Below, in pieces: positions 40,934 through 47,700 of a stretch of 64,000 nucleotides of DNA. This DNA comes from Octopus vulgaris (lineage: Eukaryota). Position 1 is the first letter of the stretch; each line of letters opens with the position of its first letter. The stretch covers positions 78,864,001 to 78,928,000 of the forward strand of contig OX597818.1 in assembly GCA_951406725.2 (NCBI GenBank). Reading direction: 5' to 3'. Position numbers: made by a program.

Positions 40934-41704
40934 GACAGGCTTCTTTCAGTTTCCGTCTACCAAATCCACTCACAAGGCATTGGTCGGCCCGGGGCTATAG
41001 CAGAAGACACTTGCCCAAGATGCCAGGCAGTGGGATTGAACCCGGAACCATGTGGTAGGTAAACAAGCTAGTTACCACACAGCCACTCCTGCGCCTATAT
41101 ATATGCACATGTAAACAAAGAGGGATTAATAAGGGATTAGTATTCCAGGAAGTTGAGTTGTTTTGGCTCTGAAGATGATTACCTGTCGGTAATAGTACCC
41201 ATATTTTCAGTCGATCATCTAATCGATTGATAAGACTGAACCATGGATATAACAACCCGTATTTCTGATTTTGTTTATATATATATATATATATCTATAT
41301 ATAAAACTGAAATGCGTTTTTACCGCTTGGATCGCTTTCAATGCCACTACATCCCGTCCGATTCGCTCCAAAATTTACAGGGACATGTAGAATGAGGTGA
41401 CGATGCGCGTGGGCTACCTTAGAAATCCCTATCTTAAAAGGTGTGGTTGCTAGGGGCCATCTTCCTCACTCACCCTACTTCCTCCAGTACTCTGTCACTC
41501 CTCTTCATTTGACAATGCCACTACGGTTATTTAATGTAAAGTCTTCCTCAAATCACTCTCTCGCTGTTTCCTCTCTTCCAAGAACATTTTCACTCACTCT
41601 TATCTCTTAGCTTCCCATACATTTTACTCATGTATCTATCAGTTTCATAGACAGAAATAAATATTACATCGCCATCGCCATCGCATTCTATTGTCTACCT
41701 GTCA

Positions 41705-41739
<35 letters not shown>

Positions 41740-44700: not shown

Positions 44701-47700
44701 GGTTGAGTGTTCTATGGTCTATGACCAGAACTCGGGAAACTTGCTTGACTGTTCTATGGTCTATGACCAGAAATCGGGAAACTTGGTTGAGTGTTCTATG
44801 GTCTATGACCAGAACTTGGGAAACTTGGTTGAGTCCTCATCTTATAAAATGTGGCCCCAGTAGACCCAAATGAAATCGGGTTATATTAACCAAAAGGTGA
44901 AAAGGGGTATAAATGGGGCTGGAAGGGGATTAAAATTTAAAGGAGCGGGTGTTTAGCAATTCTCTGTTACATCAAGCTAAAAAGTTTGCGCCAGCCTTTT
45001 AATCGTCAATGTGTTGCCGTCTACTGTCGTGAGAAAGAATCAAGTCAAAACTTAGTTTTTAGGGATTTTCTTTTACATCAAGTTCAACATTTTACGCCAG
45101 CCGTTGAACTGTCAATACGTTGCTGTCCGTCGTTAAGAAATGCCAGCCATGGTGACTCTACTATCCTCAAATTCTATCCCTTCAAACTTTGGTTTCCAAT
45201 ATTTTATTATTTTTATTCAGCTCGCAAGTTCGTCTGTCCCTTTTAAATGTTAGTATTTTGCTGTCTGTCTTGAAGCAGACCTTTCCTTTGTAACTGCCTG
45301 ATATTTATGATTGATCTTTCTAAATATTTTATTTCTCAACTTACTCAAGATCTTTTGTTGTTTATAAATGGGAGAGAGATACGTAAAGATAGAGAGTAAG
45401 AGAAAGCGAGGGAGAGTCCGAGAGAAAGGAAGAGTAAGAGAGTGGGAAAGTGAGAAAGAAAGGAGAAAGAAACAAAGAGGGAGAATCATCATCATCATCA
45501 TCATCGTTTAACGTCCGTTTTCCGTGTTAGCACGGGTTGGACAGTTTGACAGGGGTCTGGGAAGCCAGGAGGCTGCATCAGGCTCCAGTCTGATCTGGCA
45601 GTGTTTCGACAGGTGGATGCCCTTCCTAACGCCAACCACTCTGTGAGCGTAGTGGGTGCTTTTTTCGTGCCGCCTGCACAGGTGCCAGGGGGGGGTGGCA
45701 GCGGCCACGATCGGTTGGTGCTTTTTACGTGCCACCAGCACAGAAGCCAGTCAAGGCGGCGCTGCAATCCGCCACGTTCGGATGGTGCTTTTTATGTGCT
45801 GAAAGGAAGCAACAGAAAGTAACAACCACACTCTTACCCGCGCGTAGAGCGGGTCACCTTCAGCTAGTATATATATATAGAGATTTTGAAAATTTCTTTG
45901 CTAATAGTGGTCTAGCGAGAAGAAAAAAAACTAGTCAATAGACTATATATTATTCATATAAAAATACAGTGTACATTTAAACACATAAGAGATGGCCGTA
46001 ACAGAACATCTGACCCGCTTGAAGGAGTAGTTAAACTCCAAACCACTATTAGGGTTAATTTCGAAAGGGAATGAAAAATATAAACATTTATCCGCAATTT
46101 CCTGTACTATGTTTTCAAGCTATCTTCAGCAAATAAAATAATTTACTAGGCGAAGTTCTCATCAACAGGAAAGCTAAGATTGGCTTTCTCAAAATAAGAA
46201 CAACATTAAAAAAGTGAACATGAATATATCGTGCGTGTGTTTGTTTGCCAAAAATAAAATGACTATCCTGAAATTTAATTTTCAACACATTAGTGATATT
46301 GCAAAACAAATACATGAACGTACACACACACACAGACATGAGCGCGCGCATACACACACACACACATACATGTGCTCTCTCTCTCTCAAACACACATACA
46401 CATAAGTATGTATTTATGTATGTATATAAACATTGCCAGAAACACTAACCTGAATAGCTTATTAGCTGTCTGTCTTCAATAATGAATGAAGTATTCTTTC
46501 AAGATTGTAAGCTTTTTATATTCAACAATGTTTTGTATGCGAGTGGTAAAATAAGAATATTATAAATCGTTGATGCTGATGATCTAGTAAATTCACACAA
46601 TGTCGTCTTATTTTCAGTATTTGATGGTAATGAATGCGATTATTCATTATAACAGCAAAAAAAAAAAAAAAAAAAATACGGAAGTATTGCAAATGGTAAA
46701 CGCTATTACTTACTGAAATCCAAGCGCATTGCAGGCAAGTTTTGCACCCGTATTGTTCCACGAAGTACTGCATAGATTTCCCCAAACTCCATTTATATTT
46801 ACCTCTAGACGACCTTCGTTTTCATTTTTTCCAATGACTCGATAGATTTCTAAAGAAAAACGTCAAAATTACAAAACTTTGTTAGAAAAACAATTGAATA
46901 TTTCGTAATTAAGCTCCCATTTCGGGCTTACTCTGTTAGTAACAGTACACATTAAAAAATTTGAAAGTTCTGAATTCTCTATTAATTTAACGTTGGCGTT
47001 GTGAGAATTTCAATGTCTTTTAACATTCAGTTTTAATATTTTACACTCTTGATTGGGAAAAGAAATCGGTTACATCTCAAACAAAAGTCAACAAACAAGA
47101 AATGATCTATCAAGAGAATCCTTACCTCATTGATCGAAAGCATAAAGACGATATGTTTACATTCTTGTATTTTTCTCACAGCTAGGTTTGCTAATGATTA
47201 AATTTATTTCAGCCCTTTTGATCCTTGCTACACTTTCCGTAAAATATATATGGTTTCTTCTTAAAATTTACGAATTTTATTTCAATTTATAAATTTTATC
47301 CAAATTAAATACAAACTTTGATATCGAGAATTAATTAGAAGTGCTTAATATGAAAGAGGACGAAGGTGTCCGTTTGTGTAGAGTTAAGAAATATAAAGAG
47401 TATAACGTAAATATAACTTCAGTGAAAAAATTTTTTACAGAATAAGACAATTCTAGAAAGCAGTAATCTAATGTAAAATAGTCACTTAATTTAACATATT
47501 AAATATTAGGCGAATAAGGCGCCCTAAATCAACAGAAAGCATTACAAAACCACAAGGAGCACCACATTGAAAATAATGCCATCTTACGTCTCTTGGTTAA
47601 CCACCAGTTGCAGAACCCAAGTAGTTAATTTTTGGAACTCTAAAATTTTATAATACACTCGACAAAAACATTTAATTTTCCTTTCTCAAACATTCCTATT

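What the first reader, a model, noticed from the sequence alone, without database searches (positions are those of the whole stretch)
41294..45867. 4.6-kb gene-capturing composite Helitron in an SRCR-gene intron
Seen: canonical Helitron termini (A|TC... and hairpin plus CTAG|T, no TSD) enclose no RepHel gene. Instead they hold a mosaic of unrelated host-gene pieces (FBXL2/20 LRRs, a carboxylesterase/neuroligin C-terminus, more unassigned segments), a minisatellite and a SINE. Established: Helitrons capture and shuffle gene fragments in maize and bats. Inference: this is a multi-gene-transducing Helitron in a probable cephalopod genome. Both passenger ORFs are still open, suggesting recent capture or constraint.
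Basis: partly seen in the sequence, partly recalled or inferred. Interest (0 to 1): 0.85.

Follow-up and report, generated by a model that had tools for sequence, protein, structure and literature searches.

The report
Helitron-like insertion carrying gene fragments
A 4.6-kb insertion in an octopod gene intron has the end signals of a rolling-circle (Helitron) transposon and carries undecayed, intron-less pieces of two host genes, which is a known kind of event seen here in a new animal group and not yet proven to be one mobile unit.

Summary
The described features are present. A|TC lies at 41293|41294. A 6-bp GC hairpin plus CTAG|T ends at 45867. (TA)n flanks both sides. There is no RepHel. 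An FBXL2/20 LRR block lies at 43202-43570(-), a cholinesterase/neuroligin-like C-terminus with its own stop at 43851-44441(-), and a 42-bp minisatellite at 44637-44834. The site lies in an 11.9-kb intron that splits an SRCR domain.

The Helitron reading stays unproven. The strict 3' motif occurs once in the window against 0.46 expected by chance. The 5' TC cannot be told from an interrupted (TA)n. No second copy exists in the window, and no cephalopod genome could be searched.

New points:
- Both passengers lack splice sites and are uninterrupted where homologous gene models of other animals break.
- On the same strand they are followed by an AT-rich tail ending in ATTAAA plus a poly(A)-like tract, so they look cDNA-derived.
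- They show no decay: 46 of 46 and 40 of 43 invariant residues are kept.
- They sit between two reshuffled, 4-14% diverged partial copies of one backbone.

Best reading (about 0.5): a non-autonomous composite Helitron holding a young chimeric retrocopy, as known from bat Helitrons. Interest is modest.

The parts
41276..41293 (.). Left flank: (TA)n run ending in A, the putative target microsatellite
41294..41345 (+). Putative 5' terminal region starting with TC. It cannot be told from an interrupted (TA)n for its first 12 nt.
41346..41379 (+). Backbone block a (left copy), 94% identical to 44434-44467
41380..41869 (+). Unassigned stretch with (AC)n at 41705-41733, (TTTTTG)n at 41758-41786 and (CA)n at 41843-41865. 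No protein family match.
41870..41932 (+). Backbone block d (left copy), 86% identical to 44849-44911. It holds the hairpin ACCCGA/TCGGGT at 41885-41902.
41978..42075 (+). Backbone block b (left copy), 86% identical to 44507-44597
42141..42163 (+). Backbone block c (left copy), 96% identical to 44614-44636
42164..42557 (.). Unassigned T- and CT-rich stretch
42558..42575 (-). Poly(A)-like tract (A7 G A10 on the minus strand). ATTAAA lies at 42585-42590, 9 nt upstream. It is one of only 4 long A or T runs in the window.
42576..43201 (-). AT-rich, 3'UTR-like tail downstream of the FBXL block. No protein family match.
43202..43570 (-). FBXL2/20 fragment: 123 codons (LRR1-4 and the start of LRR5), uninterrupted, no F-box, inside the open frame 43193-43738
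43571..43850 (-). Spacer between the two gene fragments. Origin unknown; it may include esterase 3'UTR.
43851..44441 (-). Cholinesterase/neuroligin-like C-terminus: 196 codons with the transmembrane helix, short tail and native stop at 43851-43853
44434..44467 (+). Backbone block a' (right copy). It abuts the esterase fragment and overlaps it by 8 nt.
44507..44636 (+). Backbone blocks b' (44507-44597) and c' (44614-44636)
44637..44834 (+). Minisatellite, 42 bp x 4.7
44849..44911 (+). Backbone block d' (right copy)
45485..45800 (-). SINE-like insert: (ATC)7 at its left end and three ~65-bp subrepeats. The identity is recalled, not tested. A possible degenerate target duplication flanks it.
45836..45867 (+). 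3' terminus: 19-nt hairpin (45836-45854), 9-nt spacer, CTAG (45864-45867)
45868..45879 (.). Right flank: T followed by (TA)n
46713..46849 (-). Host exon: N-terminal half of an SRCR domain, with a Y-rich tract plus AG acceptor and a CAG|gtaagt donor
34640..34809 (-). Next host exon: C-terminal half of an SRCR domain, with a ttcttttcag acceptor and a G|gtgagt donor. The intron between the two exons is 34810-46712.

Best explanation
41294-45867 is a non-autonomous, canonical-type (HLE1) Helitron that landed between A and T inside a (TA)n microsatellite. The site is in an 11.9-kb intron that splits an SRCR domain of an octopod gene. The element has no transposase, so it would need RepHel supplied in trans.

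It is a composite. A left part carries the 5' end and backbone blocks in the order a-d-b-c. A right part carries the order a'-b'-c'-minisatellite-d' and the 3' hairpin/CTAG end. The two parts are reshuffled copies of one backbone, 4-14% diverged.

Between them, on the opposite strand, lies a block of about 1.9 kb. It reads: esterase C-terminal 196 codons plus stop, then a spacer, then 123 FBXL20 codons, then a 625-nt AT-rich tail with ATTAAA and a poly(A)-like tract. This block is best read as a young, chimeric, processed (cDNA-derived) copy of host messages.

I infer that the block came to lie inside the unit in one of two ways, both described for bat Helitrons:
- Transposition used the 5' end of one family member and the 3' end of a downstream one.
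- A cDNA was retroposed into an element.

A SINE-like piece entered later, 67 bp from the 3' end.

Shown: the end signals, the gene fragments, their truncation, the absence of splice sites, their intactness, the duplicated backbone blocks and the host exons.

Inferred: that it is a Helitron, that it moved as one unit, the cDNA origin, and the order of events.
For: End signals:
- A|TC and hairpin plus CTAG|T fit the HLE1 definition quoted in PMC11417382 (passages read).
- They also fit Helraiser: TC/CTAG, a 19-bp palindrome 11 nt from the end, an A|T target (PMC4778049, passages). Here a 19-nt hairpin ends 13 nt from the terminus.
- This is the only strict 3' motif in 64 kb on either strand. 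It touches a (TA)n run, as does the 5' end. Removing the element leaves one (TA)n tract.

Backbone. Blocks a, b, c and d occur on both sides of the passengers in direct orientation (96%, 94%, 86%, 86%). So the part bearing the 5' end and the part bearing the 3' end are related.

Passengers are not native exons:
- Only one block of each gene is in the window.
- A purine-rich stretch lies upstream of the esterase block, and there is no donor consensus. The true SRCR exons have textbook sites.

cDNA origin:
- Named FBXL2/20 models break inside the 123-aa block at residue 71 (8 models), 101-106 (8), 40 (oyster, 1) and 18 (1). These are counted using the source columns.
- Esterase homologues break at about residue 89 (6 of 150) and at 31-36 (5 of 150).
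- The window copies are uninterrupted at all these points.
- ATTAAA plus A7GA10 lies on the same strand, and it is one of only 4 long A or T runs in the window.

Youth:
- The esterase block keeps 46 of 46 positions invariant in nine homologues, and 92 of 100 positions where Argonauta and Acanthosepion agree.
- The FBXL block keeps 40 of 43 invariant positions. The named orthologues kept 43 each of the 43-51 positions invariant among the other seven.
- Neutral drift of 3% or more gives at most 0.02 probability of the esterase result.

Context:
- Octopus genomes hold Helitrons: 0.7-3.7% of the genome (PMC6279123, passage), and 8 recently active families in O. vulgaris (PMC13282606, passages).
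- Bat Helitrons carry retrogenes and arise by composite 5'/3'-end transposition (PMC4224331, passages).
Against: - The 3' motif alone is expected 0.46 times per window by chance.
- Authors of Helitron finders warn that TC/CTRR signals give many false positives (PMC11417382).
- The 5' TC sits in TATATA|TC|TATATA and may be a point change in a microsatellite.
- No other copy of the ends or backbone is in the window.
- No empty site, no family consensus and no autonomous partner could be examined.
- In the one passage I read that names host groups, Mollusca are listed under an HLE2 (Helentron) subgroup, not HLE1 (PMC11417382).
- The backbone blocks are in a different order left and right, which no simple model predicts.
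- No old internal 3' end precedes the passengers, so plain read-through transduction is not supported.
- No target-site duplication brackets the retrocopy-like block. The only shared 10-mer scores at the null median.
- The intron positions of the octopod parent genes are unknown, so 'intron-less' rests on other animals' gene models.
Confidence: 0.5

Rival explanations
1. Separate events, no single mobile unit. An old Helitron-family remnant or two (or another repeat family) already lay in the intron, and a chimeric retrocopy was inserted or recombined between them. The 5' TC at 41294 and the CTAG at 45867 then never moved together, and nothing was 'transduced'.
For: - The passenger block ends in ATTAAA plus a poly(A)-like tract and looks intron-less.
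- The backbone copies are 4-14% diverged, while the passengers show under ~3% neutral decay. So the passengers are younger than the split between the two backbone parts.
- LINE reverse-transcriptase ORFs lie nearby, one in the same intron at 36689-38212.
Against: - No target-site duplication flanks the block.
- A simple retrocopy insertion does not produce 23-98-bp backbone duplications on both sides.
- (TA)n on both outer flanks fits one insertion event.
Confidence: 0.25
2. Not a Helitron at all. The end signals are coincidences in AT-rich, microsatellite-rich intronic DNA. The region is a patchwork of decayed repeats, a retrocopy and a SINE-like insert.
For: - The strict 3' motif is expected 0.46 times per window.
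- 8 of 200 shuffles fold as well as the hairpin.
- A|TC is trivial.
- There are 64 (TA)n runs in the window.
- No RepHel is present, and no second copy.
- The literature warns of false positives.
Against: - The one strict motif in 64 kb lies 1.4 kb from the gene-fragment mosaic and directly abuts a (TA)n run. That is roughly a 0.1-0.3% chance per site given 64 runs (my estimate).
- The part bearing the 5' signal and the part bearing the 3' signal share four sequence blocks.
Confidence: 0.15
3. The open frames are working exons of a nested or chimeric gene on the minus strand. One example would be a membrane-anchored esterase-like gene whose last exon lies here. Another would be an F-box-less FBXL20 decoy translated from the ATG at 43723.
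For: - Both frames are open with no sign of decay.
- The esterase block runs to the native stop and aligns to the very C-terminus of the Argonauta protein.
Against: - No further exon of either gene lies in the 19.5 kb upstream or the 43 kb downstream.
- There is no polypyrimidine/AG acceptor at the esterase block and no donor at the FBXL block, while the SRCR exons have both.
- SRCR exons of the same strand interleave.
- The esterase stop puts the FBXL frame in a 3'UTR position.
Confidence: 0.06
4. Assembly artefact: unrelated reads joined at low-complexity or repeated blocks.
For: Junctions lie beside short repeated blocks and microsatellites.
Against: There is no N and no abrupt composition break. 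Nothing in the sequence points to it.
Confidence: 0.04

Closest known systems
Gene- and retrogene-carrying non-autonomous Helitrons of vespertilionid bats (HelibatN families, including the compound HelibatN539 and the retrogene-bearing HelibatN22/N424/N541; PMC4224331, passages read)
   Same: - TC...CTAG ends, a 3' hairpin and A|T insertion.
- No transposase.
- Fragments of several unrelated host genes.
- Intron-less, cDNA-derived passengers, some ending in poly(A).
[quoted passage not shown]
   Different: - The bat cases are proven by many copies, empty sites and identified parent genes. Here there is one copy and none of these.
- The host is a cephalopod.
- No target duplication flanks the retrocopy-like block.
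- The two backbone parts are reshuffled.
Helraiser/Helibat1 (reconstructed autonomous bat Helitron; PMC4778049, passages read)
   Same: 5'-TC/CTAG-3' ends. A 19-bp palindrome 11 nt from the end (here 19 nt, 13 nt from the end). The target is A|T.
   Different: Helraiser encodes RepHel and this element encodes none. No sequence comparison of the termini was possible.
Maize gene-fragment Helitrons (PMC3288121; search listing and abstract only)
   Same: Non-autonomous elements holding stepwise-acquired pieces of several genes.
   Different: As I recall it (not from a call), maize captures are genomic and include introns. Here the pieces appear processed.
Helentron (HLE2) non-autonomous elements carrying tandem repeats in oyster and Drosophila (PMC7492417, PMC4067079; search listing and abstracts only)
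   Same: A rolling-circle element of a mollusc with an internal tandem-repeat array.
   Different: [quoted passage not shown] Neither is found here.
Chimeric retrocopies made by template switching of LINE reverse transcriptase (recalled from the literature, no paper read here)
   Same: Pieces of unrelated messages joined head to tail on one strand, intron-less, ending in a poly(A) tract.
   Different: No target-site duplication was found. An internal CDS piece (FBXL20) lies between two other parts.

Membership tests
Canonical Helitron (HLE1), non-autonomous | 5' end starts with TC | tested here: met
   TC at 41294-41295. This is uninformative, because it sits inside a TA repeat.
Canonical Helitron (HLE1), non-autonomous | 3' end is CTRR, preceded by a short hairpin about 10 nt upstream | tested here: met
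   CTAG at 45864-45867. The 6-bp stem, 7-nt loop hairpin ends 9 nt before it. Chance expectation for the motif is 0.46 per window.
Canonical Helitron (HLE1), non-autonomous | Insertion between A and T without target-site duplication | tested here: inconclusive
   The A|...|T junctions are present. Both flanks are (TA)n, so a duplication made of TA units could not be seen.
Canonical Helitron (HLE1), non-autonomous | Several copies sharing both termini at different sites, and empty sites | not testable with these tools
   No second copy in the window. No cephalopod genome collection was at hand.
Canonical Helitron (HLE1), non-autonomous | Termini shared with a RepHel-encoding autonomous partner | not testable with these tools
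   No RepHel domain in the window. The rest of the genome is unseen. Octopus repeat libraries are in supplements that were closed.
Helentron / Helitron2 (HLE2) | Short terminal inverted repeats (about 11-18 nt) and insertion between T and T | tested here: not met
   No terminal inverted repeat other than TA-repeat matches (23 pairs listed). The junctions are A|T.
LINE-mediated processed retrocopy (the 42558-44441 block) | Lacks the introns of the parent gene | tested here: inconclusive
   Uninterrupted across recurrent break points of homologous gene models from other animals. The parent genes of this species are unseen.
LINE-mediated processed retrocopy (the 42558-44441 block) | Ends in a poly(A) tract after a polyadenylation signal | tested here: met
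   ATTAAA at 42585-42590, 9 nt, then A7GA10 at 42558-42575 on the minus strand.
LINE-mediated processed retrocopy (the 42558-44441 block) | Flanked by target-site duplications | tested here: not met
   Only a 10-mer is shared, offset from the tract. The alignment score of 24 is near the null median of 23.
Pack-type TIR transposon (Pack-MULE, CACTA, hAT) | Terminal inverted repeats and a fixed-length target duplication | tested here: not met
   No such repeats around the mosaic or the whole unit.
Native exon of a host gene | Splice sites, and further exons of the same gene nearby | tested here: not met
   No other exon of either gene. No acceptor or donor consensus, in contrast with the SRCR exons.

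The most novel reading that the evidence does not exclude
A young, perhaps still mobile cephalopod Helitron has packaged an intron-less chimeric cDNA. The two frames are kept open by selection. One would encode a membrane-anchored esterase tail, the other an F-box-less FBXL20 LRR1-4 piece with its own ATG. This would be a Helitron-borne proto-gene, for example a decoy for FBXL20 substrates, spreading in an octopod genome.
Probability: 0.06. Interest if true: 0.6.

Novelty: new member of a known kind. Interest (0 to 1): 0.3.

Why it matters
If confirmed, this would be a first worked example of host-gene (and cDNA) carriage by a rolling-circle transposon in a cephalopod. These genomes are about half repeats and are known to hold recently active Helitron families. 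No paper in the searched library joined 'Helitron', 'cephalopod' and 'gene capture'. It would show that the exon-shuffling route known from maize and bats also runs in molluscs. The mechanism itself would not be new.

Tried and rejected
- **Target duplication for the retrocopy-like block.** The 10-mer TCCAAAATTT (42543 and 44455, also 41368) looked promising. The local alignment score of 24 is near the shuffled-sequence median of 23, so I dropped it.
- **Old internal Helitron 3' end before the passengers (read-through model).** The relaxed scan gave 4 plus-strand and 10 minus-strand hairpin-CTRR sites in the region. None but the terminal one is canonical.
- **Terminal inverted repeats (HLE2 or Pack-type).** None found.
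- **Further gene fragments in the unassigned stretches.**
  - 72 ORFs of 35 aa or more were scanned.
  - Only weak or artefactual matches came up.
  - The one above cut-off (OCRE, 29.8 bits) falls in the translated minisatellite, with no stretch passing on its own.
- **RNA families and tRNA-like parts of the 'SINE'.** 9 Rfam matches, all far below gathering score and on microsatellites. 0 tRNAs.
- **Target duplication of the SINE-like insert.** A purine-rich match scored 20, against a null 95th percentile of 16 and a maximum of 21. The match does not abut the insert on the left. This is inconclusive.
- **Closer relatives or parents of the passengers.**
  - FBXL block: best identity is 70-71% over about two thirds of the query, among 120 listed of 152 hits (longer proteins) and 33 hits (similar lengths). 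Shorter partial matches reach 79-83%. None is named as a cephalopod.
  - Esterase block: 12 hits, best Argonauta at 72%.
  - Exhaustive representative search: best 42% identity.
  - The parents were not found. I could not tell whether octopus proteomes are missing from these collections.
- **Other copies of flanks or element in the window.** None.
- **Not done.** I did not scan genome contigs, because it holds only bacteria and archaea.
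Full report
**What is there**

The window is AT-rich eukaryotic DNA without N. At the stated coordinates the sequence reads ...TATATATA|TCTATATATAAAACTG on the left, with A at 41293 and TC at 41294-41295.

On the right it reads ACCCGC-gcgtaga-GCGGGT (45836-45854), then cacct tcag, then CTAG (45864-45867), then |T. The T opens a (TA)6 run, and the left junction closes a (TA)9 run.

The hairpin folds at -6.7 kcal/mol, z = -2.1, and 8 of 200 shuffles fold as well.

**Contents of the element**

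No Helitron or PIF1 helicase family was matched. This holds for the 130 window ORFs of 76 aa or more and for the 72 element ORFs of 35 aa or more.

Two open frames lie on the minus strand.

- The frame 43193-43738 holds 123 codons (43202-43570) that align without a gap to residues 50-172 of human FBXL2. The match is PDB chain 6o60_C, E 2e-71, with Pfam LRR_6 and LRR_4.
- The frame 43854-44450 holds 196 codons plus the native stop. These match the last quarter of the carboxylesterase fold, Pfam positions 400-515 of 515, E 8e-18. A transmembrane helix follows. The best solved relative is neuroligin-2, E 7e-14.

A 42-bp minisatellite (4.7 units, 93% matches) lies at 44637-44834.

The stretch 45485-45800 begins with (ATC)7 and has three ~65-bp subrepeats. 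I recall it as an abundant octopus SINE, but no tool confirmed that:

- It has no copy in the window.
- It has no tRNA-like part.
- It has no meaningful Rfam match.

**Host and setting**

The esterase block is 72% identical to the C-terminus of a hypothetical protein of Argonauta hians, running to that protein's last residue. It is 55% identical to 'NLGN' of Acanthosepion pharaonis. So the window is from a cephalopod, probably an octopod.

SRCR half-domain exons lie on the minus strand on both sides of the element.

- Upstream: 46713-46849 matches SRCR profile positions 3-41, E 1.7e-10.
- Downstream: 34640-34809 matches positions 56-99.
- Further SRCR exons lie at about 63.0, 62.1, 16.5, 14.3 and 9.4 kb.

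Both neighbouring exons have textbook splice sites. The element therefore lies in an 11.9-kb intron that splits an SRCR domain. I searched these exons one by one and built no joined model.

**Are the ends more than chance?**

A strict 3' pattern was defined as a 6-bp stem with at least 4 GC, a 3-8 nt loop, a 4-14 nt spacer, CTRR, then T. It occurs once in the window on both strands, at the claimed site.

First-order Markov sequences give a mean of 0.46 (100 runs, maximum 3). So the motif by itself is not significant. The HELIANO authors state that TC/CTRR signals are widespread and give many false positives (PMC11417382, passage).

What lifts it above chance is context. The motif abuts one of 64 (TA)n runs in 64,000 positions. 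The left junction does the same. Taking the element out leaves one clean (TA)n tract.

The 5' TC remains weak, because TATATA-TC-TATATA could be a point change in a microsatellite. 'No TSD' cannot be judged between TA repeats.

**Internal architecture**

A comparison of the element with the whole window found only internal matches, 12 rows in 6 pairs.

Four blocks occur on both sides of the passengers in direct orientation:

- a: 41346-41379 and 44434-44467, 94% identical.
- b: 41978-42075 and 44507-44597, 86%.
- c: 42141-42163 and 44614-44636, 96%.
- d: 41870-41932 and 44849-44911, 86%.

The order is a-d-b-c on the left and a-b-c-minisatellite-d on the right. So the part bearing the 5' signal and the part bearing the 3' signal are related but reshuffled copies of one backbone.

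No terminal inverted repeats exist. No older canonical 3' end precedes the passengers.

**Nature of the passengers**

They are not native exons.

- Only one block of each gene is in the window.
- The esterase block is preceded by a purine-rich stretch (block a'), not a polypyrimidine/AG site.
- The FBXL block has no donor consensus.

They appear processed.

- Named FBXL2/20 gene models break inside the 123-residue block at residue 71 (8 models), 101-106 (8 models, including Littorina), 40 (oyster, 1) and 18 (1). I counted these from the rows using the source columns. I set aside six unnamed-source models with similar break points.
- Among 150 unnamed representatives, esterase homologues end at query residue 89 (6), and 5 start at residues 31-36. 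This is soft evidence.
- The window copies run through all these points.
- On the same strand, 625 nt after the FBXL block, lies ATTAAA, then 9 nt, then A7GA10. This is one of only four long A or T runs in the window.
- No target-site duplication brackets the block.

Whether the octopod parent genes have these introns is unknown.

**Age**

The esterase block keeps all 46 positions that are invariant in nine homologues (seven named molluscs and two unnamed). It also keeps 92 of the 100 positions where Argonauta and Acanthosepion agree. Argonauta keeps 92 of the 107 positions where the fragment and Acanthosepion agree.

The FBXL block is 57-69% identical to eight named orthologues, which are 51-94% identical to each other. 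It keeps 40 of 43 positions invariant in those eight. In leave-one-out counts each orthologue kept 43 of the 43-51 positions invariant among the other seven.

In simulated neutral substitution, keeping the esterase frame open with all 46 invariant residues has probability 0.07 at 2% divergence, 0.02 at 3% and 0.002 at 5%.

The passengers are therefore either very young or constrained. They are younger than the 4-14% split between the two backbone parts.

**Reading**

The best account, at about 0.5, is a non-autonomous HLE1-type Helitron. It would have been built from the 5' part of one family member and the 3' part of another, and it holds a young chimeric cDNA-derived block.

Both routes to such a structure are described for bat Helitrons (PMC4224331, passages): composite transposition from two neighbouring copies, and retroposition of mRNA into a Helitron.

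The end signals match those of Helraiser (PMC4778049, passages).

Octopus genomes are reported to hold Helitrons:

- 0.7-3.7% of the genome (PMC6279123, passage).
- Eight recently active families in O. vulgaris (PMC13282606, passages).

Rivals are:

- Separate events without a common mobile unit (0.25).
- Chance ends in a patchwork of repeats (0.15).
- Working exons (0.06).
- Misassembly (0.04).

**What stayed unchecked**

No cephalopod genome could be searched. As a result, copy number, empty sites, the autonomous partner and the parent genes are all unseen.

The protein searches returned no protein named as octopus. The exhaustive search gave no closer relative, with a best identity of 42%.

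**Novelty**

Gene and retrogene carriage by Helitrons is established in maize and bats. No paper in the searched library combined 'Helitron', 'cephalopod' and 'gene capture' (0 papers). Seven papers held 'Helitron', 'mollusc', 'captured' and 'gene fragment', and judging by their titles and abstracts none is on cephalopods.

This would be a new member of a known kind, of modest interest.

Noticed in passing
window 44666-44860 (+): Read in one frame, the 42-bp minisatellite gives 14-residue units (VYDQNSGNL...). These reach Pfam OCRE at 29.8 bits against a cut-off of 24.7, with no single stretch passing alone. This is probably a repeat artefact, but the array could derive from a coding octamer repeat.
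   Followed up: no
window 41885-41902, 44864-44881 and 45836-45854: Backbone block d holds a hairpin (ACCCGA/TCGGGT) whose stem shares 5 of 6 pairs with the terminal hairpin (ACCCGC/GCGGGT). The right copy d' has one mismatch. This may be a spare or former terminator hairpin.
   Followed up: partly
window 36689-38212 (+), 53525-54871 (+), 18486-20047 (-): LINE-type reverse-transcriptase ORFs (Pfam RVT_1, E 1e-33, 5e-30, and a split pair). The first lies in the same SRCR intron as the element. They are possible sources of the activity that made the retrocopy-like block.
   Followed up: no
window 40596-41104: A SINE-like repeat with (TA)n/(CA)n tails has copies at 22220-22703, 15051-15482, 30006-30252 and elsewhere. 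Such tails may account for many of the 64 (TA)n runs in the window.
   Followed up: partly
window 44949-45021 and 45055-45127: An imperfect direct repeat (77% over 73 nt, 106 nt apart) lies in the right backbone part.
   Followed up: no
window 3039-63097 (-): A long array of SRCR half-domain exons runs on the minus strand. Pfam-level matches lie at 9.4, 14.3, 16.5, 34.7, 46.8, 62.2 and 63.0 kb. Weaker tblastn matches lie at 3.2, 4.9, 13.6, 15.0, 24.2 and 29.7 kb. Each domain seems split into an N-half and a C-half exon.
   Followed up: partly
window 43723-43193 (-): The FBXL frame has an in-frame ATG 51 codons upstream of the homologous part, followed by a hydrophobic stretch. As an ORF it would give a 177-residue LRR protein without an F-box. 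There is no evidence of expression.
   Followed up: no
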